A DNA stretch of 64,000 nt. It comes from Candidatus Omnitrophota bacterium. Its GTDB lineage: Bacteria > Omnitrophota > Gorgyraeia > Gygaellales > Profunditerraquicolaceae. The notes below the pieces were generated by a model. It was not told the origin of the DNA and searched no databases. It saw only the letters and a program-made list of their open reading frames with translations. The first letter of the stretch is position 1. Every line of letters begins with the position of its first letter. Location of the stretch: assembly GCA_041662125.1 (NCBI GenBank), contig JBAZTA010000001.1, positions 518,379 to 582,378 of the forward strand, given 5' to 3'. Made by a program: the position numbers and the translations under genes. Below, one piece after another: positions 46,218 through 64,000 of this stretch.

Positions 46218-46321
46218 GCAAGAAAATGTAACGAGTAACCAGTAACACGTAACGAGTAATTAACAGTTAGTCCGGGCGGAAACAATCTTTACCTTCCCCT
46301 GCGTAGCACAGAAAAAATTAG

Positions 46322-46394
46322 TGAGCCTCCCGCGGCTCGAACGCGGCACAACCACATTAAAAGTGTGGTGCTCTACCAGATGAGCTAGAGGCCC
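46322..46394 (-). tRNA. tRNA-Lys (anticodon UUU)
   Basis: GGGCCTC-TA-GCTC/ATCTGGTA/GAGC-A-CCACA/CTTTTAA/TGTGG-TTGTG-CCGCG/TTCGAGC/CGCGG-GAGGCTC-A. Confidence 0.9.
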
Positions 46395-46411
46395 GAATTT
46401 ATCTTTAAAAC

Positions 46412-46972: not shown

Positions 46973-47009
46973 TGTAAGCCCCCTTATTTTAAATTCTTCG
47001 AGCCTAAAA

Positions 47010-47735: not shown

Positions 47736-48265
47736 TATTCGGCAACGCCAACTTTATAACGCACAAACCTGCGGATAAGGATATTTTCTCCAATCTTACC
47801 GATCAAACTCGTCAGGTAATCTTTTATGGTAAGGCTGGGGTCTTTAACAAAGGGCTGTTCTAATAAACAGCTGGTTTTATAAAACCCTTCTTTATCGGCC
47901 TGCTCTTTCAAAATATCTTCGGGGACATCTTCCCTTTTGATATATACAGGATTACATGCCGCGATCTGCATGGCAAGGTCTTTAGTAAACTGGCAGAATT
48001 CACTGCTGCGAGCCACAAAATCGGTCTCACAATCAACCTCCACCAGGACACCGATCTTACTGCCTAAATGGATATACGCTTCAACCCGGCCGTCTTTGGC
48101 TAACCTGCCCTGCTTATTTGCCGCAATCTCCATGCCGCGTTTACGTAATAACTCAACTGCCCTCTTTAAATCTCCCGAGGCTTCCTGCAACGCTTTCTTA
48201 CAATCCATGACGCTGGCATTCGTTAAATTCCTTAATTCTTTAATTGCTTCAACCGGTATTCCCAT
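47735..48265 (-). CDS. tsf: Elongation factor Ts (short form)
   Basis: N-terminal UBA-like segment [19 protein letters not shown] plus a dimerisation domain, ~176 aa from the MGIPVE Met. Confidence 0.88.
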
Positions 48266-48269
48266 TTTA

Positions 48270-49917: not shown

Positions 49918-50061
49918 CGAGATTCAATCAATAGCTCTCAAGGCTGACATTTACCTTAAGGCATTTGGTTTCTTAGGGTTATAACCCTTGAACAAAACAA
50001 CCCTTTTGCTCAAAGGCCCTTATGAGGATAAACTTAAAACGGAAGGCTGATTAAAAAAGTC

Positions 50062-50442
50062 TCACCATTGTTCTTTGATTCTCTGAGCTATTTTCATTGC
50101 TAGTTCGGGGTTCGGTTGAAGATTCTTTCCGGCTTTTATTTCTATCCGTATTCTCTGAGGCTTTACTTGGCTTACCTGAACAATAACATCGGTATCTTTA
50201 ATCAATGCTTCGATCCTACCGGCGCTCTCTTCCTGCAAGCGAATGAGCCCCATGCCATATATAACCTTGTAAGTAACACGCCAGCTTTCCTGGAAAAAAG
50301 CACGTTTTTCTAACCTCAACGTACCACTCTCTGCGTCCATGATTCTGGCATTACCTATACGGCTACTTCCCCGAACGCTCATGCAGCCGTTTAAGAATAT
50401 CGCAACAACAACAAACCAGAATAATCCCTGAATTTTCTTCAT
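50062..50442 (-). CDS. Lipoprotein (lipobox LNGC), hypothetical
   Basis: Signal peptide MKKIQGLFWFVVVAIFLNGC, 126 aa. Confidence 0.6.
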   Translation of the reverse strand: MKKIQGLFWFVVVAIFLNGCMSVRGSSRIGNARIMDAESGTLRLEKRAFFQESWRVTYKVIYGMGLIRLQEESAGRIEALIKDTDVIVQVSQVKPQRIRIEIKAGKNLQPNPELAMKIAQRIKEQW

Positions 50443-50516
50443 ATCGCCACTTTTATTTTATCACAACCGCAAAAATATAACTGATTGGATGTTCTTTTTT
50501 CAATAATAATTATCAG

Positions 50517-51827
50517 CTACTTACACGTTGTCAAATCTTTAATAACCGTAACTACCCTTGCAACTTTACCGCCTTCTAAAATAGGGATCTTTCTTGTTTC
50601 CGTAGAAAACTTCTTATTTTTAATCTTAATCTTTTCTTTCGCAACCATGATCTTGCCGGTTTTAAACACTTTTTGATAGTCTTCACGCACGCTTTCAGAT
50701 AAGAACGGGTAAACGTCAAATAAGTGCTTGCCAATAACATGAGATTTTATCTTAAAATTCTTATTCCACTGCGTAAAAACCTTATTAACTAAAATAATAC
50801 GCAGTTGGCGGTCTACAACATAGACAGCCTCCCCCATAGAATCCAGCGTCATACGATATTGCAACTCCGATGATTTTCTTTTTTCCTCAGTAAGCTTATA
50901 TGCTGTAATATCATTCACATGGCCGTGATAATGAGTAATCCTTCCGTCACTGTCCCGGGGAACAACAATAAAAACATGCACCCATTTATACAGCCCGTCA
51001 GCGCAACGGATACGGTATTCCTCATCAAAACAGCCTGATCCCTCTTTACTATGCCCTTGGACATCTTTTTCCAATTTTTTGCGGTCATTCGGATGGATAA
51101 GGCTAGCGTAAAGTATCTTACCTTTCATAAAATCAGCCGGTTCATAGCCGAATTGCATTAATACATTTTCCGATACATATTCCACAGGCCAGCCTTCTTG
51201 AGCTTTCCACTTGAATACGACGGTCGGCCCGCTGATAAACAACTTCCTTTCAGCGTCTAACTCTTCCTGAACCCTGATACGCTTGTCAATTTCAAGATGC
51301 AGGTCTTCATTAGCTTTGCTGAGTTCTGCGGTGCGTACTTTTACCCGAATTCCCAATTCAGCCCGGGAGTTCCGTAAAGCTTCTTCCATTTTCTTGCGCT
51401 CGGTAATATCAAAAATAACTCCCACTAATCCTCCGGTAAGGCCTTCTTCATTCAGGAATGTCTCTTTATAAAAGACCACATTATGCCTGATTCCATTTTT
51501 AGAAGCAACATAGCTCTCATATTCCTGAATACCGCCTTCTTTAAATAATTCCTGGTCTTTCTTATGATAAATCTCAGCTAAATCCTTTGGGAAAAGATCG
51601 AAAACCGACTTACCCATAAGCTCATCTTTTGACAATCCGACATAACGCTCAAACTCAAGATTACACCCTAAATACCTGCCATTTGTATCTTTATAAAAAA
51701 TAGGAATGGGGATCGCATCAATAATAACCTGCAGGAAACGGAGTTGTTCCTGTGAATCAATCCGGGATTGTTCTGCATTACGCGGATCTGGCTCCGGTCC
51801 CTGGCCTGATTGTTGGTTATTCTGCAT
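50517..51827 (-). CDS. Triple-PAS-domain sensor protein without a recognisable output domain
   Basis: Three repeated PAS-like blocks (IPIPIFYKDTNGRYLGCNLEFERYVG...; VVFKWKAQEGWPVEYVSENV...; EAVYVVDRQLRIILVNKVF...) in 436 aa. Confidence 0.75.
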   Translation of the reverse strand: MQNNQQSGQGPEPDPRNAEQSRIDSQEQLRFLQVIIDAIPIPIFYKDTNGRYLGCNLEFERYVGLSKDELMGKSVFDLFPKDLAEIYHKKDQELFKEGGIQEYESYVASKNGIRHNVVFYKETFLNEEGLTGGLVGVIFDITERKKMEEALRNSRAELGIRVKVRTAELSKANEDLHLEIDKRIRVQEELDAERKLFISGPTVVFKWKAQEGWPVEYVSENVLMQFGYEPADFMKGKILYASLIHPNDRKKLEKDVQGHSKEGSGCFDEEYRIRCADGLYKWVHVFIVVPRDSDGRITHYHGHVNDITAYKLTEEKRKSSELQYRMTLDSMGEAVYVVDRQLRIILVNKVFTQWNKNFKIKSHVIGKHLFDVYPFLSESVREDYQKVFKTGKIMVAKEKIKIKNKKFSTETRKIPILEGGKVARVVTVIKDLTTCK

Positions 51828-51931
51828 ATTTACCCTTAGCTCTTCAGCCGCCTTCTTTACCTATATATGTAGCTGAGAGCCTATTATATAGTATCTTAAA
51901 TTATTATAACATTCACCTTAAGCCTGTCAAC

Positions 51932-53035
51932 CTAGATTTTAGCTCTTTTACCGGGAATCAGTGACGGATAATCTAACTTGAGCTCAAAAGGATATTCATG
52001 ATAATAATGATCCAATTTAAAGAAAAGGCTGTCTTGAGCCATTTTTTTAATGATTTTACTTAATGGTTTATCTTGCGCAGACAGAAAACCGGTATTATTC
52101 CTGACTTTTAAATATTGCGTATCAATCCCCGGGCAGATCATGGCAAGGCTGCATTTCAGGCATTCTTTATGATTATGAGCATTCTGGTTATAATTCACCG
52201 TAGGCCCTGGTTTAAAAGATGTATTTTTTCCCAAGAGCTGATTATTATTAAAAAACATCTTGTTTTTTCTTAGTTTCAACGGCAGCTCAAGGCAGAGATG
52301 TTCAAAACCGCTATACAAACAAAGCGGGAAACGGCTTATGACAACACCAATGCCGTTATTCAACGCGTATTTGAGAGCTCTTTGAAGGTAACCAGCAAAC
52401 TCATTGTAATCCGGCATAAGCCCCGGATTTTCAAAGACTCGCCCTTCAAGATTAAGCGTCTTTATATGCACCAGAAAATCCCTGCTTCCCAAGAGCTTTT
52501 TCAACAGCTTAAAAACTGCAAGTATTTTAGGAAAATTAACCGAATTTGGAATAAAATTAAAGAAAATAACCATCGTACTGCTATAATCCCTGATATTTTT
52601 TATCCCTTGGATCAATTCTTCAAATGCATCCACGCCCATAAGGGCGCGAAACATCGATCTATCATGAGCATGCACGGAAATTTCAATAGAATCAAGGTAT
52701 TTTAATATCCGGCGCGCGAATACCCGGTCAGCGAACTTAATGCCATTGGTGACTAAATACGTCTTTATACCCTGACGATGAATAAACCTCAAGATCTCCT
52801 CAAGGTCTTCCCGCAGCGTCGTCTCCCCCCCCATGAAATTGATCGCTTCAATACCCATCGATTTAAGTTTCAGCACCGTTTGCTTGATAACACTCAAATC
52901 GACATTAACCGGATGCGTATGCCGGCCTTCTGAACAAAACAGGCAAGACGCATTACAAAATGAAGTCACATTCAGGATCGCGGTCTCCCCCTTGATTTTC
53001 CTAACGCCGGTCTTGAGATCAGGTAATATGCTCAT
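51932..53035 (-). CDS. Radical SAM protein with a C-terminal SPASM/twitch-like Cys motif
   Basis: CNASCLFC (CxxxCxxC), GGETTL, and C-terminal CLKCSLAMICPG. Confidence 0.8.
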   Translation of the reverse strand: MSILPDLKTGVRKIKGETAILNVTSFCNASCLFCSEGRHTHPVNVDLSVIKQTVLKLKSMGIEAINFMGGETTLREDLEEILRFIHRQGIKTYLVTNGIKFADRVFARRILKYLDSIEISVHAHDRSMFRALMGVDAFEELIQGIKNIRDYSSTMVIFFNFIPNSVNFPKILAVFKLLKKLLGSRDFLVHIKTLNLEGRVFENPGLMPDYNEFAGYLQRALKYALNNGIGVVISRFPLCLYSGFEHLCLELPLKLRKNKMFFNNNQLLGKNTSFKPGPTVNYNQNAHNHKECLKCSLAMICPGIDTQYLKVRNNTGFLSAQDKPLSKIIKKMAQDSLFFKLDHYYHEYPFELKLDYPSLIPGKRAKI

Positions 53036-53064
53036 AATATTTTAAGGCTTCGGCCTTGGTAAAA

Positions 53065-54717
53065 TTATTTATCGGGCAGCACCCGTATATACGGTTTGTT
53101 AAGTTTAACAGAAATATCCTTGCCGATAAACTTTCCTGCCGCGTGATCACGGGTCTTAATAATAAGGGACGCGGAAGAATCACGGAATAATATAAATTTG
53201 CTTTGCATGGTATGGATTGCCTGGCCGCAATCGATAAAACAGGTTGCCGGATATTGCCTTCTCAGGCTTCCTGACGCACCATGCCCATGCACCCAGATCT
53301 CAGGCATTAACTGCCGAGGTAAAAGCTGAGTAAGCGGCAAACCGGCTTTGCCGACTTTTATCAAATCAATACGGTAATGAGAGAAGACAATCCTGATAAA
53401 ATCAACTTTCTTGTTCAAAATACTCATCAGCTTCTTAAACGTCTCCTCTGTTATCGTATCCGCAGCAACCAATTCTCTATGAGAGGGAAAAGCGTCTATC
53501 GGCAAAATAATGGAACAAATGTTGCCGTCCTCAAAAGACGAGAACAGATTATTTGAAAGATATTTACGAAAATACGCAATTTGAGGTTTCTTGTTTTTAT
53601 AGACATACTCATGATTTCCCAAAACATGTGTGATCTTTCTTCTCTCTGCACAATCGGAAAAGGCTTTTTTATACGCTGCATACGCTTTTGGCCCCTGATC
53701 GCCTTCCACCGTATCACCCACAAAGAAGCCTTTTGACCAGAAAATCGAATTACTGTCCCGCAATATCGCCCTTACCTTACCTGAATTGGTGAGCCCGGCA
53801 TGTAAATCAGCAAGGCACCAGAAAACCAGATATTTACGAGCAGCATTTATAGTATGCAACTCTCCATCACAGCCTAAGGCATCCTTGCAACCAGCACACT
53901 CATTCTTCTTACTCACCATTTTTTTAATAAGTGGAGCCAATCGTTTCTGTTTCCCGTTTTCAAAGACAAGCCTAATGTTCCCTAAATTTGCGTTTCCTGT
54001 GATTTTAAATTTATGTAAGCCTCTCACCAGGCACGGGGGGATAAAACGAAGCGCCCCTGAAGTAAAACGGGTTAAAGAAAGGTTCCTCCCTAATCTGCGG
54101 ATATCGTTATAGTCAAGCATCCTGTCCTTATCAATAACGATTTCGTTTGTAAAATCAAGATTTGAAGGCACTACCGGGCTTACCATAAAAAAATGAAGCC
54201 CTCTGGCAGCGAAGAAATCGAGCGTTTTATGGACACCGGTAATGTTATAGCGGTGGACCAGAAGGCTCCCCCCCAGCTCAACTTTTTTTCCGCGAAGGTT
54301 CTTAATACCCTGCAGGAGTTCTGCGAAACTTCCCTTTACCCCGGTAATTTTTTCATAACTCTCTTGTTTATGCGAATGAAGAGAAAAAATTATCTTGGTC
54401 AAGCCCGCCTCAATGATCCTCTCGCAGAAATCACGATAATAAAACATCCTCCCGTTGGTAAAAAGCGTTATGTTCGTAAAACCATGCCTTTGGGCCTCGC
54501 GGACATACTCGAATATATGGGGGCTAATGGTAGGTTCTGCCCCGCTCAAATCAAGGCTCTTATATCCACGCCCGGCAGCAAGCCTGATTTCTGCCAATAC
54601 AAACTTTTTGTTACTATAGCCCTGAGGAGCAACCTCACAGAAAAAACACGCATTGTTACATGCATGGGTGAACTGAATGATGATTATTTTCTTTCGGTTT
54701 TTTTCCTGAATCAACAT
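53065..54717 (-). CDS. Radical SAM - metallophosphoesterase (calcineurin-like) fusion protein
   Basis: N-terminal CNNACFFC plus SGAEPT. The C-terminal half carries all MPE motifs: ADLHAG, GDTVEGDQG, GNHEY and HGHG. The start is probably the MLIQEK Met. Confidence 0.8.
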   Translation of the reverse strand: MLIQEKNRKKIIIIQFTHACNNACFFCEVAPQGYSNKKFVLAEIRLAAGRGYKSLDLSGAEPTISPHIFEYVREAQRHGFTNITLFTNGRMFYYRDFCERIIEAGLTKIIFSLHSHKQESYEKITGVKGSFAELLQGIKNLRGKKVELGGSLLVHRYNITGVHKTLDFFAARGLHFFMVSPVVPSNLDFTNEIVIDKDRMLDYNDIRRLGRNLSLTRFTSGALRFIPPCLVRGLHKFKITGNANLGNIRLVFENGKQKRLAPLIKKMVSKKNECAGCKDALGCDGELHTINAARKYLVFWCLADLHAGLTNSGKVRAILRDSNSIFWSKGFFVGDTVEGDQGPKAYAAYKKAFSDCAERRKITHVLGNHEYVYKNKKPQIAYFRKYLSNNLFSSFEDGNICSIILPIDAFPSHRELVAADTITEETFKKLMSILNKKVDFIRIVFSHYRIDLIKVGKAGLPLTQLLPRQLMPEIWVHGHGASGSLRRQYPATCFIDCGQAIHTMQSKFILFRDSSASLIIKTRDHAAGKFIGKDISVKLNKPYIRVLPDK

Positions 54718-54730
54718 GTGTAACCCTGCG

Positions 54731-55858
54731 CTATTGTGCTCTCTCCGCATAATGATAAAAACACCCCTTACAACCGGGAGAAAGGCTCTTGGAAAACAAG
54801 GCTCTTACCTTTTGCGCCTGCCTGCCATTCCAGATTTCTGAAAATGAATGCTCCTTGATATTTCCGATAAAAACATCGTGACAGACATAAATATCGCCAT
54901 TAGGCATAACGTTGACCTGATGCCAGGGAGCTGTACAATACCGGCAATAATGCAAGGCTCCCCGGTTATCTTTATAATACGGGATTATCTCATCCGGATA
55001 CAGGTCAGGGCTAAAAGATACCGCGCGGAGCTTTTTAACTTTCCTGATCTCGGCAATAAATCGGGAGAAATCAATATACCCCGGAGAATAGGTATATCCC
55101 GGCCAAAGCTCAAGCGCCGTAATATTAAGTTTATCACGCAAGAACTTTTCTTGCATTTTCAATGTCTGCCGGTTTATGAACATCAAATGCTGAAAATGGT
55201 AATTGTCAACCGCAATGCCGGCATTCTGCATGAATGCAATGAACTCTCCCATATGCGCATAACTCAGGTCTGAAATAGTATATAACATATTTAAACGCGG
55301 GCGGTTTGCATGCTTTTTCTTATACAGCGTAAGGGCGGCTAAGCCCTTTACAATCGTCTTAAAATGAGCGGGAGAATCTTCCCTGATCAGATGAAGGATC
55401 GACGGCGGCCCCCCCAGGGAGAGGCTAACCTGGTCTAATACCCGAACAGCCTTATCCATGTTTTTTAAAAGATAGACTCCGTTTGTGGTAACAGAAACCC
55501 GCACCCCTTGTTTTTTGAAACACTGAGCCAGATTGTACCAGTGCGCAGACAACAATGGTTCCCCTCCGGAGAAAGTCACTGTTTTAGGATGAAACGCCAT
55601 TACTTCTTGTGCGAATCTTTCCAAATCTTCCTGGCTTAAAGAAGCTTTATATTTGTTAAGAAACCCTTTTTTTCTGCACGGCCCTTTGATCCCCCACCAT
55701 GAGCAAACTTTACAGCGCAGGTTACAGCGAAGCGAGAACATGATGTAAACTTCCCCTACAGAGGTAGCCTTCAACAAGTCACTACTGGCTCTTCCCTTAA
55801 GCGATAAAGCCAAGGCTTGTGTATCTACTGTTAAATCAAGCATCGCGCCTCCTTGCAT
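54731..55858 (-). CDS. Radical SAM / SPASM-domain protein
   Basis: CNLRCKVC, SGGEPLL, and C-terminal CRYCTAPW...CHDV...GCKGC SPASM-like cysteines. Confidence 0.82.
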   Translation of the reverse strand: MQGGAMLDLTVDTQALALSLKGRASSDLLKATSVGEVYIMFSLRCNLRCKVCSWWGIKGPCRKKGFLNKYKASLSQEDLERFAQEVMAFHPKTVTFSGGEPLLSAHWYNLAQCFKKQGVRVSVTTNGVYLLKNMDKAVRVLDQVSLSLGGPPSILHLIREDSPAHFKTIVKGLAALTLYKKKHANRPRLNMLYTISDLSYAHMGEFIAFMQNAGIAVDNYHFQHLMFINRQTLKMQEKFLRDKLNITALELWPGYTYSPGYIDFSRFIAEIRKVKKLRAVSFSPDLYPDEIIPYYKDNRGALHYCRYCTAPWHQVNVMPNGDIYVCHDVFIGNIKEHSFSEIWNGRQAQKVRALFSKSLSPGCKGCFYHYAERAQ

Positions 55859-57822
55859 CCCGGCTGCTTAATCGGAAAATACATTTCTGAGTGAAAAAAT
55901 TCCCGGAACAATTCCTCTCGCATAAGGCTATTCACGACAATTTCTTTTTTCCGCGAGCCGCGCTTATATACATTGATGACACGCAATAATGCGGTGTCAA
56001 GATCACACAGAAAAATCTTATTGTGACGCAACCAACCAACATCGCCGATAAGACTGGCTTCTTTGAGCCTTCGGAAACGTTTAGAAAAAACAAGGTTGCC
56101 GCAGAGATACACCTTTCCTTGCCCATCAACGGTAATATCAGTTGAGGCAGCTCCAAAAACGCCGGGGATTCCACAGTTCAATATCGAAACGCCCTTACGA
56201 AAATAAAGGTCTCTGCTTATTTTAAAAAGAGATACCAGGGCGCAGGCTACAGAAGAAGCATCATACAAGATACCGGGATCATAAGAAAATCTTATTTTCC
56301 TGACCCCCTGCTTGATCAAAAAAGAAATATCTTCCTCAAAACCCTCAAGATGCAAAAAAGGCACGTCCTGTATAACCCCAAAATCACTGCCGTTTTTCTT
56401 CAAAAGTTTTATTAATCCCGATATCTGCCGCTTAAAGGCGATATTCTTTACTGATGCGTGGATACCCCCACCTATTTTCAAAAGACATAAAACACGGTGC
56501 CGCAACAGGAAATTAATTTTATCTTCGTCTAAAAACAACCCCCCAGTAACCAGCGTACAAGAAACCTGCTTACGGGAAGACTTCTTTTTTTGCTGAACAT
56601 AACTAAGAGCTGCCTTGATCATTTCAAAATGCGCCAGCGGCTCTGCTCCGGAAAACTCCAGTTCAAAGCTCTCTTGCGAAGAAGTAAAAAGCATATCAAT
56701 AGACTTCTTCAAAACATCTTCACGCATACCCGGGCCGATCATCAGAGAAACTTTACCGAAAGAGCGATACCAGCCGGCATGGATACTCTGAGCGCGAGGC
56801 TGTTTTTCGAAAAGGGAATATTCTTGGCGCAAATGATTGAATTTATATAAAAACTCTGCGGCAATACCCATATACAGAATATGCATAAATTTCTGATGCA
56901 AACTCCGGGCGTATCTACGGATTATCGCTGCCTGCTTACCTTTAGTCATTTTTAAAGCTGTCAAATCCTTACAGTCATCGAGCTTGCCAAAATAAAAAAT
57001 ACGGTTTAATTCCGGGTATGCCCTCTCCAATACCAGCGCACACCCGATATATATCGATCCTGAGGCAGTTATGCTGATCTGAGGGCAATAAAAAACCGGT
57101 TCGCAATCTACGTCAAAATTTATGATCCGCGCGGTATGTCCATGCACTGATTTTAACAAAAACCCGAGCTCTGTAATATATCCGAGAAAATCCTGTCGCG
57201 AATATTTCTGCCCCAACGCATACGCTATCCAGATACGCCGTATCCCTTTTTTGATGAGAAAATCAATATTTTTACGCATAAGCGGGATATCTTCGCTCAA
57301 AACCACCATACTGACAAAATACCGGGCTTTATGCTTATTCAACAGGCCGATATTACGCAGTACCGTATTGAAATACTCTTTATTGCCTCCTATCATCGGC
57401 CTGTTCTTTAACTGCGTCAGCCGCGCGCCGTCGATACTGACCATGATCTCGACTTTTTCCCGCGTCAAAAAACCGATCTTCTCTTCATCCAAGAGCAGGC
57501 CATTAGTAGTGAGTAAATATGTAATTCTTTTACCGGTAGCCCTTTTTCTTTGGCCCGCATAATACAGTGCTTTCTGGATCAGGTCGAACCGCATAAGAGG
57601 CTCGCCGCCAAAGAACTGCAGTTCAACTTTTTTCTCAGGAGAAGTAAACAACAGATCAATAGACTTCTTCAAAACATCTTCCGGCATATCCGGCTGAGTG
57701 CGGTTAAGAAAACAATACCGGCAGGACAGCGGACAGCGGGTAGTAAGCAATAAAGCAACATTACGGATGCTTGACGGCTCTTTAAAGCGCGTGAAATTCA
57801 CGGGTTCCATATTTACGGGCAT
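55831..57822 (-). CDS. Internally duplicated radical SAM (anSME/SPASM-twitch-like) protein. The first half has CPLSCRYC; the second half has a degenerate cluster motif.
   Basis: Halves align (PEDVLKKSIDLLFTSPEKKVELQFFGGEPL versus REDVLKKSIDMLFTSSQESFELEFSGAEPL). A 27-nt identical DNA segment, atcaatagacttcttcaaaacatcttc, occurs at both ~56690 and ~57655. The start is uncertain because the ORF-track start overlaps the upstream gene by 188 nt. Confidence 0.78.
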   Translation of the reverse strand: MPVNMEPVNFTRFKEPSSIRNVALLLTTRCPLSCRYCFLNRTQPDMPEDVLKKSIDLLFTSPEKKVELQFFGGEPLMRFDLIQKALYYAGQRKRATGKRITYLLTTNGLLLDEEKIGFLTREKVEIMVSIDGARLTQLKNRPMIGGNKEYFNTVLRNIGLLNKHKARYFVSMVVLSEDIPLMRKNIDFLIKKGIRRIWIAYALGQKYSRQDFLGYITELGFLLKSVHGHTARIINFDVDCEPVFYCPQISITASGSIYIGCALVLERAYPELNRIFYFGKLDDCKDLTALKMTKGKQAAIIRRYARSLHQKFMHILYMGIAAEFLYKFNHLRQEYSLFEKQPRAQSIHAGWYRSFGKVSLMIGPGMREDVLKKSIDMLFTSSQESFELEFSGAEPLAHFEMIKAALSYVQQKKKSSRKQVSCTLVTGGLFLDEDKINFLLRHRVLCLLKIGGGIHASVKNIAFKRQISGLIKLLKKNGSDFGVIQDVPFLHLEGFEEDISFLIKQGVRKIRFSYDPGILYDASSVACALVSLFKISRDLYFRKGVSILNCGIPGVFGAASTDITVDGQGKVYLCGNLVFSKRFRRLKEASLIGDVGWLRHNKIFLCDLDTALLRVINVYKRGSRKKEIVVNSLMREELFREFFHSEMYFPIKQPGCKEARCLI

Positions 57823-60013
57823 ACGCGGACCAGACTCCTTCGCACCAGCCATTTTCTTTGCATGATGCGCAAAATTTAAACTTGCGTTTCTTTGACAAAC
57901 GTTGTTTAGAACACTCACGCAAGGCACTCCCAAGCGTAATGACTTCGTCAAACGGACGATATGGCTCAAAAGCGCGCGCGCGTAATTGAGCTAATGAGCA
58001 TAAAGGAAACCCTTCAAAATACAATTTCTGGATGAATTCCGGCAGCTCAACGCATATCCGCTGGAGCTGACGCATAACTTCCGATATCGCAGGAAGAGCG
58101 TTTTTTGGAACCTGAATATGGCCTAATGAATTGCTTACGAAAACCAGATGTAATTCATCAACACCCAGCTTGAGCAAAACCGAACAACATTCAAACAACG
58201 AGTCAAGATTAGCGTTAGTGATAACGATATCCGCCTGGATAGAAAGGCAACGCGCGTTTTCCCTGATATTCCTGATCCCGGTAATTGCCTGGCGGAAAGA
58301 ACCGGGGACTCTGCTTATCTGATCATGGACAGGCCCCAGCCCAAAAAAAGGGATGATAACTTTTTCTAAAGAAGTAAAACCGTTCAATACTTTAACCAGT
58401 CCCGGATACGATAACATACGCGCATTGGTGTATAAGAAAAGGTTATGCATTTCCAATTCGTCGCAATAGCGCAATATATCCCTCATATCTTTTCTTAATA
58501 ACGGCTCTGCGCCTGCCAAAACAACATACTCCCCCCTGCTCTTAACAAGCTCTAACTCAGATTTTATCTGCTTGAGGCTTTTTTTCACCCGGCGGCTTTC
58601 TTTAACCAACGAGCAAAACGCGCAATTATTATTACAGGTATTTGAAATTTGGATGATACTCATCCGGGGCTTTATCATGTTAGATAGTTCTTTAAGCTTT
58701 TTTTCGCTATGCTCAAGGGTAAAAGCAGGAGGACAATGGTTGGAACCTAGATAATACTTTTTCGGGAGCAAACCTCTTTCTTCAAAGATATCATGGATCC
58801 GCGTCATCGGATAGACCTTGACAATATTCACTAAAAGGTTGTCCGGATTACAATCACGCACATAATAGGCGGTTTCCCTTATCGTCTCCTCTGTTTCACC
58901 CAAATTCCCGACCATAAGCATAAGCACGGTACGTATCCCCGCTCGCGCGGTAAGCTTTAAAGCCTTTTTCGACTTAATTAAATCGAGGTTCTTGCCAATT
59001 GAACGTTGAATCTCTCCCGATGCGCTCTCTAAACCATACGATATCTCAAAACAGCCGGCCTGCGCCATAAAAGCAAGTAAGGGCGCGTCAACCGAATCAG
59101 AACGTGTCATACACGTCCAGCTTATGGTAAGCCCTGCTTGCATGATCCCTTTACATATTGCGATAACTCTGCGCCTGTCCCGGGTAAAGAAATTATCCCC
59201 AAAGACAAAATTCTTAATCTTGAACTTTTTATGGAAATAAGCGACCATCGCGACAAAATACTCAGGGCTATGAAACCGCATTTTGTCCTGGATCACCTTA
59301 CTCATCGGGCAGAAATTACAGCTATACACACAGCCGCGGGAAGAAAGCAATAAAAGGGCGTTGCGGAAGCTCGTGCAACGTTTCCCCAGGATAAAGTTCC
59401 TTTTGGCTGAAATAGTATCCAAACAGTTGATCTTATCCTGAAATCCGCTAAAAAGATGAAATGCCGGGTATGGCAGGGAATCCAGGTCGGTAATACCACG
59501 CCGATCTTCGGTGCGTAACACTTTTCTGCCCTGCCGATACGCTATCCCATCAATAGCGCTGATATCCCCTCCTTTTGTTTTAAGGCAGCAGACTAATTCA
59601 AGAAAGGACTGCTCGCCTTCTCCGATAACGATATAATCAACCGGAAAATGCTTCAGGAGAAACTCATATTTATCTGTCGCAAACGGCCCACCGAGAATAA
59701 TGATTGCCAGGGGCGCGGCATCTTTTATCGTTTTGATCAACTCATAGACCGGTCCGCGCGTGCAGCTTTGAATGGTGATACCGATATAACGGGGCCTGGT
59801 TTTCAGTATCCGCCTGAAGCTTTTAAGCATCACCGGCACCGGCTCAAGGTCAAAATCATAGACACTGACAGGGATATGATTTTTAAGCAAAGAGGCGGCA
59901 ATCAAACTGATCCCATACGCAGGGCCGAAGTAATTTGGCGCCGGGTCCGGGTTCGTCGGGTTTACGAGGACTATTTCATGCTTAGAAAATTTATTTCGCA
60001 GGCTCATGATCAT
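57782..60013 (-). CDS. B12-binding-domain radical SAM fused to a second radical SAM domain (743 aa)
   Basis: N-terminal B12-binding-like Rossmann region, first cluster motif CVYSCNFC and a second CNNNCAFC with AGAEPLL in the C-terminal half. Confidence 0.82.
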   Translation of the reverse strand: MIMSLRNKFSKHEIVLVNPTNPDPAPNYFGPAYGISLIAASLLKNHIPVSVYDFDLEPVPVMLKSFRRILKTRPRYIGITIQSCTRGPVYELIKTIKDAAPLAIIILGGPFATDKYEFLLKHFPVDYIVIGEGEQSFLELVCCLKTKGGDISAIDGIAYRQGRKVLRTEDRRGITDLDSLPYPAFHLFSGFQDKINCLDTISAKRNFILGKRCTSFRNALLLLSSRGCVYSCNFCPMSKVIQDKMRFHSPEYFVAMVAYFHKKFKIKNFVFGDNFFTRDRRRVIAICKGIMQAGLTISWTCMTRSDSVDAPLLAFMAQAGCFEISYGLESASGEIQRSIGKNLDLIKSKKALKLTARAGIRTVLMLMVGNLGETEETIRETAYYVRDCNPDNLLVNIVKVYPMTRIHDIFEERGLLPKKYYLGSNHCPPAFTLEHSEKKLKELSNMIKPRMSIIQISNTCNNNCAFCSLVKESRRVKKSLKQIKSELELVKSRGEYVVLAGAEPLLRKDMRDILRYCDELEMHNLFLYTNARMLSYPGLVKVLNGFTSLEKVIIPFFGLGPVHDQISRVPGSFRQAITGIRNIRENARCLSIQADIVITNANLDSLFECCSVLLKLGVDELHLVFVSNSLGHIQVPKNALPAISEVMRQLQRICVELPEFIQKLYFEGFPLCSLAQLRARAFEPYRPFDEVITLGSALRECSKQRLSKKRKFKFCASCKENGWCEGVWSAYARKYGTREFHAL

Positions 60014-60035
60014 CTCTTATGTAATCAGCACGCTC

Positions 60036-63000
60036 TCATCCCTCAAAAAAACATGCTTTACAGGTAACATTCAAGTGCCGGCAGCCGCGGCAAAACTTTC
60101 TGCCGGGAACATTCTTACCTCTTTTTTGACAAGTGATCTTTAAACAATAGTCGCAATCACGCGGCACATAATAAGTATACCAAGACTCGCCGAAATCCAA
60201 CAAACATTTCGGTATAGGCTTATAGACTAAAAACACACCATGCCGGCGCCGCAAAGACAAATAGCGCCTTATTTGTTTAAGCGCGGCAAGGTCAATATCC
60301 TCTTGCCTTATCTTAAAGTCAATCACTTCAAAACCACATGTTTCTTTTTTCCGGGCCTTGATCGCATGCATATCCGCGCTTATATCTTTAAAACTGACCG
60401 GCCTGACATACGGCGCTAACGCCGATTTAAATTCTTTCAGCAAAAACTTAGATTTCGACTCAAAAAAAGAACTGGTATAGTTATACGTAAAAACCTTTTC
60501 AAGAAAATCAGTAGTCAACTCGGGGCTTGCGCACGGCCATACAGAAGGATGAAGTTCGCTCAAACTACGAGAGGAAAACTCAGACTCATATTTCCTAAAT
60601 ACCCCGGTATTCGGAATAGGAGTAAAGGCATTAAACTTAACCGCTACCGCGCATTTCCATAACTCGATAATGGTATTAATTATTTCCTGCCGGCTCTGAT
60701 CCGGCAAGCCGATAAGCACAAATGCCGAAAGCTGATTGTCGCGCAAATACATGCGCGGCCTCCTTTTTTCAGCTTTACGCAGAGACATCCCCCGCAGCGC
60801 AGGATTATACCAGCCAACACTCTTTAAATTTGAAACCGCCGTATAGAACCCCGTATTCCCTCGGGGCCGCAGGTATACTTTCGGGAACGAACGGGCAGAA
60901 ACCTCAAAAGCAAGACAAACTTGTTTTACATGCGCACGCAACAACTTCCTTGCCACACCTTTAGAAATAAAATCTGGCTGTAGCCCCTCAGGAAATTCAA
61001 TTTCCATTTTGAACTTGAGATCAATAAGCCTTTGCAGAAAATCATCAAAATAGGTATTCTTGGCCCCGAAAACATTGGATTCCCAGAAAGTAAATGTGCG
61101 GACACCGTACTTCTCATACTTCTGCCTGATCTCATCCATAACAAGGTCAAGAGAACGAAAATATGTTTTCTTGCCTTCAATAAAGGGAACCGCGCAGTAG
61201 GTGCATGAATTAACACAGCCGCGGCTGAATTTGATCACTGCCATTTTCTTAGAAAAATTGGCAAGCAAATTAAAACTAGCCTGATAGTTATCAGCGTGAT
61301 AAAAGACACCCACAAACACTTCAACCCCCAATTTCCTGACAAGAGGAGCGCATAAAGACGCTAAAATCCCTCCCACGCAGATAACCGCTCCGGGAAACTT
61401 TTTCTGAGCTGCCGTAACAATCTGGCGAACAAAATCATATTCATAAGTGAATTGCGAAGTAATAAAGATCTCATCAGGCTCACCTGCCGCTTCAAGACGT
61501 TTTAAGAATTCTACCAAAGGGGTACCCCGGCGATACAATTTCTTTTTTCTCTTCTCTTGCGCAAAATTACCGCATTGCACCGATTTAAAAAAGTAGGATT
61601 CCTTTAAAGTATCCTCCCAACAGTCTGCCAAACAATCAATAAGGCTAATCCGATGCCCGCGATCTTTTAGAAAAGCCCCGATTTTAAGTAAACCAGCGGG
61701 TTCTTCAGAATAGAGATCAGCCATCCCTTCCCCTTGCATTGTAGGAGGCCTGATTAAAAGATATTTCTTGTTTTTGGAAGATACGATCCTTTTCGTGATT
61801 TCGTAATTATCCCGCTTCTCATTGAATTTATCCGCATAGGCAATGCTTAAGCTGATAAATTCATCATAAAGCATTCCGCCTTCAGAAGAATACGGCAAGG
61901 AAAACGACCGGGTATCATACGCGTTTGTCTCCGGCTGCCTCAGCCTGAAGCCTTTTTGATGAGAATAAATAGAGGTATTCCTGCCAAAAGCGAAATACTG
62001 AGGAATAATACCGGATATTTTCTCCCTCCGGAACAATACATATTCCCATGTCTCAATATATTCCCTTTTTTCCTGGAATGGATAACTCATAATAAATAAA
62101 TCAATCTTCATGCCTGCCTCAAGGGCGGAATCAAGGAAACGGTCTAATGCAAGAAGGTCAATGCCTTTACGCAGCGTATTCAGGAATTCCTGGTTTGAAG
62201 TTTCAAGACCAACAGCCATAAAAGTAGCGCCCGAGCGTTTCAACAATAAGAACTCCGCAGGTGTTATCGGGTAATCCGCGCGGATCAAACAATCCCACTG
62301 AACCTTGATTTTACGTTTTATGATCTGCTCAGCGACTTTCAATAAAAGCGGTACAGGCGTTGAGGAATCAGCAAACGTAAAGGCCTTCAGGGAATACCTT
62401 TTTTGCAGGCTTTCGATTTCATTGATAATCCTCTCAACACTCTTCTGACGCATGATCGTCTTATCATTGATATGGTGGCAAAACCTGCACTTATGCCAAT
62501 AGCAGCCTTTTGTGGTCGATACCGGTAACGCACGAGAAACATCGTGTTTGGAGATACAATGGTCAAAATCACCCAGCGGCAAATCATTGAGAGGAACTAT
62601 CTCTGCATCTCCGGTATCAATAAGTGATCGGCCTGAAAGGAAAACTAACCCCTTAATCGATCTTAATTCTTGAGGCGGCGCGCCTTTTTTTAACGCATTG
62701 ATCAAACTCAATAAAGGGACTTCTCCTTCCCCGTTTACGACGAAATCGACAAAATCAAAGATCTGCTTGAAATTTGACAGCTCAGCCCTCGAACAAATAC
62801 ACCATGCCCCGCCTATAACAATACGGGTTGCGGGAAAACGCTCCTTTATTTTTCTGGAAAAATACAGCGCGCTGCCTAACTGTAACGGCGTTAACACGGA
62901 AAATCCCACAACCGCTGCCTTTTGCGCCAAAGCAAAAACATGGTGTTGGAGAAAAAAATCAAACAAGGGGTCATCCTGCTTAAGAAGAACCGCCATTTTC

Positions 63001-63431
63001 CTTATATCGTATTCATTATTGGTAATACTGACTAATTCACCCAGCAGCCGCATGCTTTCTTCTTGGATAAAATTATAGGTATTAAGAAAACACCGTTTAA
63101 AATCAAGCTCAATAAAAGTTTCCTTATCGATAGAACGAAACAGTGGATGGCCGCCTCGGGAAGCAATACGGGAACTAACCCGGTCTGAAAAAAGCTTTTT
63201 GTAACGAGGGAGGAATTCATTCATAAAAACAATGTTGAGATCGAACGCTTCGGCTGCCACGCCATTCTTCTTCAGAAAACCGCTCAACTGCGGAAGGCCA
63301 AGTTCGGGAATAGTAAATTGAAATCCGGGAGGAGGAAACAACAAAAGACAATCAAGCGTATGCGCTACATCCATATTTTCCCCTTCATTATTCCTACTTT
63401 TCCCTACCTGCATAAATACACAAACGGGCAA
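60036..63431 (-). CDS. Tandem B12-binding radical SAM didomain protein (1131 aa) with a Cys-rich C-terminal tail
   Basis: Two B12-binding-like modules, each followed by a radical SAM core: CYWHKCRFC (Cx4Cx2C spacing) and CVNSCTYC. The C-terminus carries CDYC...C..RG....C.GC....C.AC. Confidence 0.8.
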   Translation of the reverse strand: MPVCVFMQVGKSRNNEGENMDVAHTLDCLLLFPPPGFQFTIPELGLPQLSGFLKKNGVAAEAFDLNIVFMNEFLPRYKKLFSDRVSSRIASRGGHPLFRSIDKETFIELDFKRCFLNTYNFIQEESMRLLGELVSITNNEYDIRKMAVLLKQDDPLFDFFLQHHVFALAQKAAVVGFSVLTPLQLGSALYFSRKIKERFPATRIVIGGAWCICSRAELSNFKQIFDFVDFVVNGEGEVPLLSLINALKKGAPPQELRSIKGLVFLSGRSLIDTGDAEIVPLNDLPLGDFDHCISKHDVSRALPVSTTKGCYWHKCRFCHHINDKTIMRQKSVERIINEIESLQKRYSLKAFTFADSSTPVPLLLKVAEQIIKRKIKVQWDCLIRADYPITPAEFLLLKRSGATFMAVGLETSNQEFLNTLRKGIDLLALDRFLDSALEAGMKIDLFIMSYPFQEKREYIETWEYVLFRREKISGIIPQYFAFGRNTSIYSHQKGFRLRQPETNAYDTRSFSLPYSSEGGMLYDEFISLSIAYADKFNEKRDNYEITKRIVSSKNKKYLLIRPPTMQGEGMADLYSEEPAGLLKIGAFLKDRGHRISLIDCLADCWEDTLKESYFFKSVQCGNFAQEKRKKKLYRRGTPLVEFLKRLEAAGEPDEIFITSQFTYEYDFVRQIVTAAQKKFPGAVICVGGILASLCAPLVRKLGVEVFVGVFYHADNYQASFNLLANFSKKMAVIKFSRGCVNSCTYCAVPFIEGKKTYFRSLDLVMDEIRQKYEKYGVRTFTFWESNVFGAKNTYFDDFLQRLIDLKFKMEIEFPEGLQPDFISKGVARKLLRAHVKQVCLAFEVSARSFPKVYLRPRGNTGFYTAVSNLKSVGWYNPALRGMSLRKAEKRRPRMYLRDNQLSAFVLIGLPDQSRQEIINTIIELWKCAVAVKFNAFTPIPNTGVFRKYESEFSSRSLSELHPSVWPCASPELTTDFLEKVFTYNYTSSFFESKSKFLLKEFKSALAPYVRPVSFKDISADMHAIKARKKETCGFEVIDFKIRQEDIDLAALKQIRRYLSLRRRHGVFLVYKPIPKCLLDFGESWYTYYVPRDCDYCLKITCQKRGKNVPGRKFCRGCRHLNVTCKACFFEG

Positions 63432-64000
63432 TATTCACAGTAACGGCTGTCTTCTTCATCCGCCTTAAAGGCGACTTCGGGGTCAAAGATTTCCTGGATA
63501 ATAAAATCCAGCGCCGAAATATAAGCCCCCATTATTTTATTTTTAGACAAAAGCTGTTCTTCATTCTTAAAAAGCATACGCAAACCATGATCTTTTCCCA
63601 GTTCCTTGATCAGATAAAGGCAGGCATTGGTCGTCTTCCTTTTATATTCCTTATTTTCTTCAACCAGAAAAAGATATAACGGCAGCTGTATTGATTTCAG
63701 GATATGCTTAACCGTAAGCCTGCTCCAAAGCACCTGCTGCGCCACATGCTCATCCAAAGAAGGCAGAATATCAGCACTACCGGTCTTATAATCAAGCACA
63801 AGTATAGTACCATCTGCGGTAACATCAATCCGGTCAATAACCGCTTGAAATTTAACCAGCCCCGAAGAGAGTCGAATTGCCGTCTTAAAGGATTCTTCCA
63901 ACCCGATAATTCGCTGGATGTCTCTTTTTCTTTCATTCTCCAGGAAGCGTTCCAAGCGAAAAATAAGGATCTCTTTGATAAGGAAGGCGTCAGATTTCAT
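63404..64000 (-). CDS. PD-(D/E)XK nuclease, Cas4/RecB(AddB)-like with a C-terminal Fe-S Cys cluster. It is partial, with the N-terminus beyond the window end.
   Basis: IDRIDV...VLDYKTG (RecB-family motifs II/III) and a C-terminal CEYCPFVYLC, a CxxC-x5-C as in Cas4/AddB. The ORF runs off the 3' edge of the window. Confidence 0.7.
   Translation of the reverse strand: MKSDAFLIKEILIFRLERFLENERKRDIQRIIGLEESFKTAIRLSSGLVKFQAVIDRIDVTADGTILVLDYKTGSADILPSLDEHVAQQVLWSRLTVKHILKSIQLPLYLFLVEENKEYKRKTTNACLYLIKELGKDHGLRMLFKNEEQLLSKNKIMGAYISALDFIIQEIFDPEVAFKADEEDSRYCEYCPFVYLCR

What the first reader, a model, noticed from the sequence alone, without database searches (positions are those of the whole stretch)
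60036..63431. 1131-aa protein made of two complete B12-binding radical SAM modules in tandem, with a non-canonical Cx4Cx2C first cluster
Class B radical SAM enzymes are normally single-module proteins of about 450-650 aa. This ORF contains two successive B12-like Rossmann regions, each followed by a radical SAM core: CYWHKCRFC at roughly residue 310 and CVNSCTYC at roughly residue 740. It ends in a C-terminal tail with eight or more cysteines. The first cluster motif has Cx4Cx2C spacing rather than CxxxCxxC. This could be a true fusion that processes a substrate twice, or a sequencing or assembly fusion of two genes.
Basis: seen in the sequence. Interest (0 to 1): 0.62.

Follow-up and report, generated by a model that had tools for sequence, protein, structure and literature searches.

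The report
Two-module B12 radical SAM enzyme
This is a genuine, evolutionarily conserved fusion of two different cobalamin-type radical SAM enzymes in an Omnitrophota bacterium; it leads an operon of six radical SAM genes whose relatives sit beside His-Xaa-Ser repeat peptides, so it most likely helps to modify such a peptide heavily.

Summary
The ORF at 60036-63431 (minus strand) most likely starts at the ATG at 63374, giving 1112 aa. It contains two complete Rossmann + radical-SAM modules. The first has CYWHKCRFC (Cx4Cx2C), the second CVNSCTYC, and eight Cys lie in the last 56 residues.

It is not an assembly artefact. Collinear full-length relatives occur in independent assemblies down to about 31-38% identity, with both Cys triads kept. 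The AlphaFold model is confident (pLDDT 88.9, pTM 0.79).

The halves are homologous only at profile level (hhalign 99.5%, 15% identity), so this is a fusion of two divergent lineages. The N half is OxsB-like and the C half is MgmA-like.

Cx4Cx2C is not novel. OxsB and GenD1 have it, and it marks a large subfamily (at least 587 hits in reference genomes). Multi-module B12-rSAM proteins with 2-5 cluster motifs also exist in metagenomes.

Orthologues of this gene and of its operon partners lie in gene arrays with HxsA4, HxsD and HxsB4, the type-4 His-Xaa-Ser system. The window itself encodes no precursor.

Best reading: an accessory dual tailoring enzyme of an expanded Hxs-type peptide maturation pathway. 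The chemistry is unproven.

The parts
60036..63374 (-). Gene for the two-module B12-type radical SAM protein (1112 aa from the ATG at 63374; the maximal ORF reaches a TTG at 63431)
   Evidence: ORF. Start codon and Shine-Dalgarno-like GAAGGGG. Identical to NCBI protein P0001.
62550..63356 (-). N-module Rossmann (B12-binding-like) domain, residues 7-275, with a helical insertion at about residues 46-150
   Evidence: Pfam B12-binding 20.8 bits, below threshold. Beta-alpha pattern in the AF2 model. Aligns to the C-module Rossmann domain in hhalign. OxsB is the top fold match of the full model.
62478..62504 (-). Cx4Cx2C cluster motif CYWHKCRFC (C291, C296, C299)
   Evidence: Invariant in all full-length and N-half relatives. 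Aligns with the OxsB Cx4Cx2C loop.
62049..62519 (-). N-module radical SAM core (residues 286-442)
   Evidence: Pfam Radical_SAM 40.9 bits against a cut-off of 29.5. Conserved FADxST and GLE motifs.
61779..61868 (-). Long linker helix (residues 503-532) joining the two modules.
   Evidence: Helix 503-532 at pLDDT about 90. Sequence conserved in relatives. Free-standing relatives of each half break here: P0057 covers 11-525 and P0060 covers 534-1110.
61275..61766 (-). C-module Rossmann (B12-binding) domain, residues 537-700
   Evidence: Pfam B12-binding 33.7 bits against a cut-off of 32.1. Models.
61194..61217 (-). Canonical CxxxCxxC cluster motif CVNSCTYC (C720, C724, C727)
   Evidence: Invariant in all relatives of the C half.
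60495..61235 (-). C-module radical SAM core (residues 714-960)
   Evidence: Pfam Radical_SAM 38.3 bits. Best solved fold match of the C-half model is MgmA, 9ccb, E = 1.9e-15.
60207..60449 (-). C-terminal alpha/beta domain of unknown family (residues 976-1056)
   Evidence: No Pfam family. pLDDT about 80-90 in the full-length model.
60039..60206 (-). Cys-rich tail: C1057 then CX2CX4C-X12-CX2CX6CX2C, eight Cys in all. Possible auxiliary Fe-S or zinc site.
   Evidence: Seven Cys are conserved in P0001-P0004, P0056, P0060 and L083, fewer in P0055, none in P0058. Low pLDDT of 52-63.
57782..60013 (-). Operon gene 2 (743 aa): B12-rSAM module fused to an HxsC-like rSAM module (two CxxxCxxC motifs)
   Evidence: Orthologues at 49-52% identity lie 4.5-7 kb downstream of HxsA4 in L147 and L155.
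55831..57969 (-). Operon gene 3 (up to 712 aa): two PapB/HxsB-like modules, the second without a Cys triad
   Evidence: Homologues at 30-42% identity in the Hxs4 arrays L147, L148 and L155.
54731..55858 (-). Operon gene 4 (375 aa): radical SAM + SPASM
   Evidence: A 57%-identity orthologue lies 6 kb upstream of HxsA4 in L148.
53065..54750 (-). Operon gene 5 (561 aa): HxsC-like radical SAM fused to a metallophosphoesterase-like domain
51932..53035 (-). Operon gene 6 (367 aa): HxsC/MoaA-like radical SAM

Best explanation
The gene encodes a real single polypeptide made of two complete but very divergent class B (cobalamin-type) radical SAM modules. The N module is OxsB-like with a Cx4Cx2C cluster loop. 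The C module is MgmA-like with a canonical CxxxCxxC loop. A small C-terminal domain and a Cys-rich tail follow. Inferred mechanism: each module binds its own [4Fe-4S] cluster, SAM and probably cobalamin, and each carries out a different radical step on one shared substrate. C-methylation is the default chemistry of this class, but other B12-radical chemistry is possible. The gene is the first of a six-gene, all-radical-SAM operon. That operon is the detached accessory set of a type-4 His-Xaa-Ser (Hxs) system, so the most likely substrate is an HxsA4-type His-Xaa-Ser repeat peptide encoded elsewhere in the genome. Shown here: the architecture, its conservation, the fold relationships and the gene-neighbourhood links. 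Inferred: cobalamin binding, the chemistry and the identity of the substrate.
For: The fusion is real and old. Collinear relatives come from independent assemblies at 76-78% (P0002, P0003, L085), 49% (P0004, found in JGI, ENA and Logan data), about 47% (L083, once its local frameshifts are read through), 38% (P0055), 34% (P0056) and 31% (P0058). Both Cys triads are invariant. The AF2 model has pLDDT 88.9 and pTM 0.79. Both halves pass Pfam Radical_SAM independently. The halves are homologous and collinear at profile level (hhalign probability 99.5%, E = 2e-22, 362 columns, 15% identity). The N half matches OxsB by sequence through the Cx4Cx2C loop, and OxsB tops the fold search of the full model. 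The C-half model best matches MgmA, a B12-rSAM that C-methylates a protein residue, while OxsB falls to rank 22. Links to Hxs: in L083 the orthologue shares a same-strand gene array with an 86-aa peptide ending HVSHASHASHGSHGSHGSHGQW, which passes NCBIfam HxsA4 (58 bits against a cut-off of 55). The leftmost genes of L083 and L001 are 45-49% orthologues of the HxsB-like maturase that sits beside HxsD and HxsA4 in Omnitrophota MAGs. The operon partners have orthologues in HxsA4 arrays: W743 at 49% and 52% over its full length in L147 and L155, W375 at 57% in L148, and W712 at 30-42%. HxsA4 homologues named by NCBI come from Omnitrophota and Elusimicrobiota.
Against: No HxsA4, HxsD or true HxsB4 is encoded in the 64-kb window or in the syntenic locus L085. 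None of the 76 HxsA4 homologues lies on a contig of the window's size (646,436 bp) or L085's size (365,851 bp). Most HxsA4 loci sampled have no two-module gene within the DNA held (L147, L148, L150, L151-153, L154, L155, L156), so it is at best an optional accessory. Within the DNA held, the two-module gene and an HxsA4 peptide share an array only in L083. No curated family threshold is met by either half. The B12-binding model is below threshold for the N half. AprD4, a close fold match, has a B12-like domain that does not use cobalamin (from my own knowledge of that enzyme). The chemistry is untested.
Confidence: 0.6

Rival explanations
1. The protein is a real two-module enzyme, but the compact operon does not act on an Hxs peptide. 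Its substrate would be something else, such as a lipid, a tetrapyrrole or other cofactor, or another protein. The co-location with Hxs4 genes in other organisms would then reflect a shared pool of radical SAM genes and not a shared substrate.
For: No precursor-like ORF lies in the window, in L085 or in L084. No HxsA4 homologue lies on a contig of matching size. Core-only Hxs4 loci exist (L151-153). L001 and L156 carry NifH/CfbC-like and NifD/K/BchN-like genes, HemN/HemZ-like genes and a TP_methylase, all of which are families known from tetrapyrrole chemistry. Omnitrophota are reported to carry radical SAM lipid-modifying genes (bioRxiv 10.1101/2023.10.20.563219).
Against: The nitrogenase-like genes themselves sit in arrays with HxsA4, HxsD and HxsB4 (L156), so they do not define a separate pathway. 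The best, though sub-threshold, family matches of the operon are peptide maturases: TIGR03975, PapB, HxsB and HxsC/HxsC4. The best fold match of the C half, MgmA, acts on a protein. Four independent arrays link the operon's genes with Hxs4 core genes.
Confidence: 0.3
2. Only one module is catalytic. The other would be a degenerate scaffold or substrate-binding module, or its Rossmann domain would not bind cobalamin, as in AprD4.
For: The N-half B12-binding score is below threshold (20.8 against 32.1). AprD4 ranks high in both fold searches. The neighbouring 712-aa protein does contain a degenerate second module without a Cys triad, so pseudo-modules do occur in this operon.
Against: Both Cys triads, and the acidic residue at the GGE-equivalent position (FADxST in the N half, FWESN in the C half), are invariant from 78% down to 31% identity. 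Free-standing relatives of each half exist as complete enzymes.
Confidence: 0.15
3. The long ORF is a sequencing or assembly artefact that joins two ordinary B12 radical SAM genes.
For: Free-standing proteins corresponding to each half exist: P0057 (533 aa) and P0060 (586 aa). One relative (P0005, L083) is called as a truncated 825-aa protein.
Against: The same continuous architecture occurs in at least seven independent assemblies and sequence clusters across 31-78% identity. The L083 truncation is due to local frameshifts in an otherwise collinear locus. The conserved linker is modelled as a confident helix.
Confidence: 0.02

Closest known systems
OxsB (oxetanocin A biosynthesis; PDB 5UL2-5UL4)
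   Same: Cobalamin-dependent radical SAM with a Rossmann domain followed by a radical SAM barrel and a Cx4Cx2C cluster loop. It is the best solved sequence match of the N half (E = 2.3e-5, aligned through the loop) and the best fold match of the full model (E = 1.7e-15). The motif is documented in PMC9204698.
   Different: Only about 14% identity. OxsB has one module and, from my own knowledge, acts on a nucleotide together with the phosphohydrolase OxsA. There is no OxsA-like gene here. The N half has its own helical insertion in the Rossmann domain.
MgmA (methyl-coenzyme M reductase glutamine C-methyltransferase; PDB 9CCB)
   Same: B12-dependent radical SAM acting on a protein side chain. 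It is the best fold match of the C-half model (E = 1.9e-15, TMt 0.63) and its best PDB sequence hit.
   Different: About 14-17% identity. The NCBIfam model TIGR04014 scores 70 bits against a cut-off of 360, and that hit falls on the N half. There is no methanogenesis context.
TIGR03975 RiPP maturation radical SAM C-methyltransferases
   Same: Best NCBIfam hit of the N half and of all its close free-standing relatives. Same domain order.
   Different: Scores of 86-147 bits against a cut-off of 281.85, so neither the N half nor its relatives are members. A TIGR03975-type protein in the hit list (P0012) has a much longer first spacer in its Cys loop.
HXS anti-phage system (HxsA/B/C/D; Nat Commun 2026, PMC13128918) and NCBIfam type-4 models HxsA4/HxsC4
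   Same: Relatives of this gene and of its operon partners lie in arrays with HxsA4 (passes its cut-off), HxsD (PF27806) and an HxsB-like rSAM/SPASM maturase.
   Different: The characterised system has four genes, is 99.7% Pseudomonadota, and involves no B12 enzyme. The arrays here have 6 to more than 14 radical SAM genes. HxsA4 is a short peptide with a predicted membrane segment, with no peptidoglycan-binding domain evident. The window itself lacks HxsA, HxsB and HxsD.
Other fused radical SAM proteins: FbiC (CofG+CofH) and metagenomic tandem B12-rSAM proteins (P0009, P0062, P0070 and others)
   Same: More than one radical SAM module in one chain. FbiC is mentioned in PMC11917521. P0009 has two B12-rSAM modules. 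P0062, P0065, P0070, P0080 and P0085 have 4-5 cluster motifs.
   Different: FbiC modules are not B12-type (my own knowledge). The halves of P0009 are recent internal duplicates (33% identity, E = 1e-108), whereas the halves here are not detectable by BLASTP (E = 0.42) and belong to different subfamilies.

Membership tests
Radical SAM superfamily (PF04055) | Three-Cys cluster loop plus partial TIM barrel, scored by the Pfam model, in each half separately | tested here: met
   N half 40.9 bits and C half 38.3 bits against a cut-off of 29.5. Both triads are invariant in relatives.
Class B (cobalamin-dependent) radical SAM | B12-binding Rossmann domain N-terminal to the radical SAM core: C half | tested here: met
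   PF02310 33.7 bits against a cut-off of 32.1. Fold matches to MgmA, TsrM, CysS and TokK.
Class B (cobalamin-dependent) radical SAM | B12-binding Rossmann domain N-terminal to the radical SAM core: N half | tested here: inconclusive
   PF02310 20.8 bits, below 32.1. However, hhalign aligns it with the C-half Rossmann domain, and OxsB is the top fold and sequence match.
Class B (cobalamin-dependent) radical SAM | Actual binding and use of cobalamin | not testable with these tools
   Needs purified protein. No model coordinates or ligand modelling were available.
TIGR03975 RiPP maturation radical SAM C-methyltransferase | Score at or above the curated cut-off of 281.85 | tested here: not met
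   146.8 bits for the whole protein. 86-105 bits for free-standing N-half relatives.
OxsB-like Cx4Cx2C subgroup | Cx4Cx2C spacing of the SAM-cluster cysteines | tested here: met
   CYWHKCRFC. The pattern C-x-W-x-x-C-x-F-C occurs in every N-half relative examined and in at least 587 confirmed relatives in species-representative genomes.
MiaB/RimO methylthiotransferases | Conserved three-Cys auxiliary cluster in the N-terminal domain | tested here: not met
   In the C-half family alignment the only invariant Cys are those of the radical SAM triad. NCBIfam scores are 26-34 bits against cut-offs above 250.
His-Xaa-Ser (HXS) system, in the window | HxsA repeat peptide, HxsD and HxsB encoded in the locus | tested here: not met
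   No HxS-repeat ORF in six frames of the 64-kb window. tblastn with HxsA4, HxsD and HxsB4 from three MAGs finds only paralogous hits to the 712-aa and 375-aa genes.
His-Xaa-Ser (HXS) type-4 system, in loci of relatives | HxsA4 peptide above the curated cut-off, in one array with orthologues of this gene or of its operon partners | tested here: met
   L083 peptide scores 58 bits against a cut-off of 55 for NF038313 and lies 8.3 kb upstream of the two-module orthologue. L147, L148 and L155 carry HxsA4 and HxsD (PF27806) plus W743, W375 and W712 orthologues.
HxsC4 (NF038332) / HxsB (TIGR03978), for the operon partners | Score at or above the curated cut-off | tested here: not met
   HxsC4 gives 87.7, 72.1 and 59.7 bits against 500 for the 743-, 561- and 367-aa proteins. 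HxsB gives 148 against 370 for the 712-aa protein.

The most novel reading that the evidence does not exclude
The two-module enzyme and its five radical SAM partners (eight intact cluster motifs in six genes) form a trans-acting hyper-modification machine. It would install several B12-dependent C-methylations or cross-links on HxsA4-type His-Xaa-Ser repeat peptides. That would define a greatly expanded Omnitrophota/Elusimicrobiota version of the HXS phage-defence system, which in some members also recruits nitrogenase-like reductases. Fusion of two unlike B12 modules would enforce an ordered two-step modification.
Probability: 0.3. Interest if true: 0.75.

Novelty: new variant of a known kind. 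Interest (0 to 1): 0.5.

Why it matters
All characterised cobalamin-dependent radical SAM enzymes are single-module. A conserved chain carrying two unlike modules is a natural test case for how two B12/[4Fe-4S] active sites cooperate on one substrate. The neighbourhood evidence also suggests that the HXS system has a far more elaborate uncultivated-phylum variant. HXS was shown only in 2026 to be a four-gene anti-phage system of Proteobacteria. The variant seen here has 6 to more than 14 radical SAM genes, B12 enzymes and sometimes nitrogenase-like reductases, so there is unexplored peptide chemistry. The finding is not a new enzyme class. The Cx4Cx2C motif and multi-module fusions both have precedents.

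Tried and rejected
1. Assembly artefact: rejected by conservation across independent assemblies.

2. Recent internal duplication: rejected. BLASTP between the halves gives E = 0.42, against 33% identity between the halves of P0009.

3. MiaB-like methylthiotransferase for the C half: rejected, as there is no conserved auxiliary Cys triad.

4. Known defence-system component by PADLOC: only generic radical SAM similarity to pVip and PDC-M51A.

5. Local precursor peptide: none found. I screened small intergenic ORFs, HxS repeats, His-rich ORFs and low-complexity ORFs.

6. Looking up the window's own contig by exact protein: not on record.

7. Rfam: only four tRNAs in the window, and nothing near the gene.

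8. Alignment A3 placed the N-half relatives on the C half and was discarded. A5 was checked motif by motif before use.

9. Tetrapyrrole pathway as a separate explanation for the NifHDK-like and HemN-like genes of L001: weakened, because homologous nitrogenase-like genes sit next to HxsA4, HxsD and HxsB4 in L156.

10. The GTDB genome scan found no close orthologue of the whole protein, only N-half-type relatives at 30% identity or less.

11. Literature searches for tandem or multi-domain B12 radical SAM proteins found nothing relevant.
Full report
**What is there.**
A single ORF runs on the minus strand from 63431 to 60036, 1131 codons counted from a TTG. That TTG overlaps the last codons of the upstream AddB-like PD-(D/E)XK nuclease gene. 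The ATG at 63374 has a GAAGGGG box five bases upstream. It gives a 1112-aa product identical to an NCBI protein, 'MAG: radical SAM protein [Candidatus Omnitrophota bacterium]', recorded on a 646-kb contig (P0001). In ORF numbering the motifs are CYWHKCRFC at 310 and CVNSCTYC at 739, and eight cysteines lie in the last 56 residues.

**Two modules, both credible.**
- Pfam reports two Radical_SAM and two B12-binding stretches.
- Scanned alone, residues 1-530 score 40.9 bits for Radical_SAM (cut-off 29.5) and 20.8 for B12-binding (cut-off 32.1, below threshold).
- Residues 531-938 score 38.3 and 33.7 bits.
- The last 174 residues match no family.
- BLASTP does not detect similarity between the halves (E = 0.42).
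- Profiles built from free-standing relatives of each half align collinearly over 362 columns: hhalign probability 99.5%, E = 2e-22, 15% identity.

These are two complete modules of the same kind from very different lineages. This is not a recent duplication. The unrelated tandem protein P0009 is a useful contrast, since its halves are 33% identical.

**Not an artefact.**
- Full-length collinear relatives occur in independent data sets: 78% and 77% (JGI, P0002 and P0003), 76% (L085, a 366-kb contig), 49% (P0004, assembled separately in JGI, ENA and Logan data), 38% (P0055), 34% (P0056) and 31% (P0058).
- The 825-aa relative P0005 is truncated only by local frameshifts. tblastn aligns residues 7-1111 collinearly on L083.
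- Both Cys triads and the linker sequence are conserved.
- An AlphaFold2 model built on a 40-sequence alignment, checked motif by motif, has mean pLDDT 88.9 and pTM 0.79.
- In that model a confident helix (503-532) joins the modules. Only a loop (871-878) and the Cys tail are poorly defined.
- Free-standing versions of each half exist and break at that junction: P0057 covers 11-525 and P0060 covers 534-1110. That is the pattern expected for two enzymes that work together.

**The Cx4Cx2C loop.**
The spacing is real and invariant, but it is not new.
- OxsB, a structurally solved cobalamin radical SAM enzyme, has it (PMC9204698).
- GenD1 has it (PMC4340712).
- RadicalSAM.org lists a whole megacluster with it (PMC9477430).
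- OxsB is the best solved sequence match of the N half, aligned through the loop.
- Every N-half relative examined carries C-x-W-x-x-C-x-F-C.

**Fold relationships.**
- Foldseek of the full model against the PDB returns the solved cobalamin radical SAM enzymes first: OxsB 1.7e-15, then MgmA, AprD4, TsrM, CysS, TokK and MiaB.
- A separate model of the C half (pLDDT 79, pTM 0.78) best matches MgmA, the glutamine C-methyltransferase of methyl-coenzyme M reductase (1.9e-15, TMt 0.63).
- For the C half, OxsB falls to rank 22.
- So the N half is OxsB-like and the C half is MgmA-like.
- No curated NCBIfam model reaches its cut-off for either half or for their closest free-standing relatives. The best is TIGR03975 (RiPP C-methyltransferases) at 147 bits against 282.
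- The C-half family has no conserved auxiliary Cys triad, so it is not a MiaB-type enzyme.

**How unusual is a two-module protein?**
Among characterised class B enzymes it is unusual. Two literature searches found no paper describing a tandem B12 radical SAM protein. The exhaustive search of 1.84 billion representatives shows that it is not unique in sequence space.
- Of the 150 best hits, many are over 1000 aa with several matched stretches.
- Those I fetched carry two to five cluster motifs, for example P0062 with four and P0070 and P0085 with five.
- P0083 has two Cx4Cx2C modules.
- P0059 has a canonical module, then an N-half-type module, then the start of a C-half-type module.
- C-half-type modules are also fused to class I methyltransferase domains (P0064, P0071).

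**Genomic context.**
- The gene is the first of six tightly packed or overlapping radical SAM genes, with gaps of -188 to +29 nt.
- The others are: a 743-aa B12-rSAM fused to an HxsC-like rSAM; a 712-aa double PapB/HxsB-like protein whose second module lacks the Cys triad; a 375-aa rSAM-SPASM; a 561-aa rSAM fused to a metallophosphoesterase-like domain; and a 367-aa rSAM.
- The same operon, flanked by AddAB-like genes and a PAS-domain gene, recurs in P0002's contig and in L085. L084 holds its first four genes before the contig ends.
- The more distant orthologues lie in much larger same-strand arrays of at least 14 radical SAM genes (L001, L083).

**Link to His-Xaa-Ser systems.**
- In L083, 8.3 kb upstream of the orthologue, an 86-aa ORF ends in HVSHASHASHGSHGSHGSHGQW. 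It passes NCBI's curated model for HxsA4 (58 bits against 55).
- Its homologues, where NCBI names the organism, come from Omnitrophota and Elusimicrobiota.
- Their loci show a core: HxsD (PF27806), a small ORF, an HxsB-like rSAM/SPASM gene, HxsA4, usually an unknown gene beside the precursor, and HxsC4-like rSAM genes. A variable set of further radical SAM genes often follows.
- The window's 743-aa protein has full-length orthologues at 49% and 52% identity in L147 and L155.
- The 375-aa protein has a 57% orthologue in L148.
- The 712-aa protein has 30-42% counterparts, in the same gene order as in the window.
- The leftmost genes of L001 and L083 are 45-49% orthologues of the HxsB-like maturase.
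- The nitrogenase-like genes next to the orthologue in L001 have homologues beside HxsA4 in L156.

The canonical HXS system was shown in 2026 to be a four-gene anti-phage system. Its HxsA effector is matured by HxsB and HxsC and blocks phage DNA entry. It is 99.7% Pseudomonadota, and the paper does not mention B12 enzymes (PMC13128918).

**Limits of that link.**
- The window, L085 and L084 encode no HxsA4, HxsD or true HxsB4.
- No HxsA4 homologue lies on a contig the size of the window's or of L085's.
- Core-only loci exist (L151-153).
- Most HxsA4 loci sampled lack a two-module gene within the 20 kb held.
- The two-module enzyme is therefore at best an optional accessory, and in this genome it is encoded away from any precursor.
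- A different substrate cannot be excluded. I give that about 0.3.

**Mechanism proposed.**
Shown here: two intact cluster loops, two radical SAM barrels each preceded by a Rossmann domain, a conserved fusion, and membership of an all-radical-SAM operon. Inferred: each module binds a [4Fe-4S] cluster, SAM and cobalamin, and each performs a distinct radical step on a shared peptide substrate. C-methylation is most likely, by analogy with MgmA, TsrM, CysS, TokK and TIGR03975 enzymes, but OxsB shows that other outcomes are possible. Fusion would secure stoichiometry and order. The Cys-rich tail (CX2CX4C-X12-CX2CX6CX2C plus one upstream Cys) may hold an auxiliary Fe-S cluster or zinc. It is conserved in most but not all relatives.

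**Verdict.**
This is a real and conserved protein, and a new variant of a known enzyme kind. The 'non-canonical' cluster loop is ordinary for its subfamily. The most interesting aspect is the context: an expanded, B12-containing, type-4 His-Xaa-Ser maturation machinery in Omnitrophota.

Noticed in passing
window 55831-57969 (-): The 712-aa protein has two PapB/HxsB-like radical SAM modules, but only the first keeps a CxxxCxxC triad (C79). The second, from about residue 410, looks like a degenerate pseudo-module. Its ORF overlaps the upstream gene by 188 nt, so the true start is probably later.
   Followed up: partly
window 57782-60013 (-): The next gene is also a two-module enzyme: a B12-rSAM (CVYSCNFC at 228) fused to an HxsC-like rSAM (CNNNCAFC at 460). 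Three of the six operon genes are fusions. The same modules are combined differently in L001 and L083 (for example a 932-aa B12-rSAM + PapB-like protein).
   Followed up: partly
window 53065-54750 (-): Radical SAM domain fused to a calcineurin-like metallophosphoesterase domain (Pfam 21.5 bits, right at the cut-off). The role is unknown.
   Followed up: no
L001 13535-17464; L156 15687-19515: Nitrogenase-like genes lie inside Hxs4-type radical SAM arrays: a NifH/CfbC-like gene (280 bits against a cut-off of 402) plus two NifD/K/BchN-like genes. In L156 the NifH-like part is fused to a NifD-like part. The two loci are homologous (32-40% identity). An ATP-dependent reductase in a peptide-maturation cluster would be unusual.
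   Followed up: partly
L083 13380-17381: A 1333-aa protein combines a peptidase U32-like N-terminus with three radical SAM modules (HxsC-like, PapB-like, HxsC-like).
   Followed up: no
L083 1433-1693; L147, L148, L150, L155, L156 at 10001-10390: HxsA4 peptides share a Lys-rich N-terminus (..K.FL.SEE[AG]K[IV].KK..), a hydrophobic segment, and then His-Xaa-Ser repeats that usually end in GSHGQW. A prepilin-peptidase-like (A24) gene is adjacent in L148 and L154.
   Followed up: partly
proteins P0062, P0065, P0070, P0080, P0085, P0095, P0101, P0135: Giant metagenomic proteins of 1800-2700 aa carry three to five radical SAM cluster motifs each, mostly repeated B12-rSAM modules. Some have an N-terminal SPASM-type rSAM, or TPR and methyltransferase regions. 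I found no literature on them.
   Followed up: partly
window 50517-51827 (-): A 436-aa protein made only of PAS domains follows the operon and is syntenic in L085 and in P0002's contig. Core Hxs4 loci L151-153 are followed by a response regulator and a PAS histidine kinase. This may be a regulator.
   Followed up: no
window 45840-49166 (-) and 63404-64000 (-): Housekeeping context: three tRNA genes (45840-46394), then frr, pyrH-like, tsf and rpsB (46412-49166), and an AddB-like PD-(D/E)XK nuclease gene ending just upstream of the two-module gene. The listed long ORFs at 19554-64000 lie on the minus strand, with steady negative GC skew over 50000-64000.
   Followed up: no
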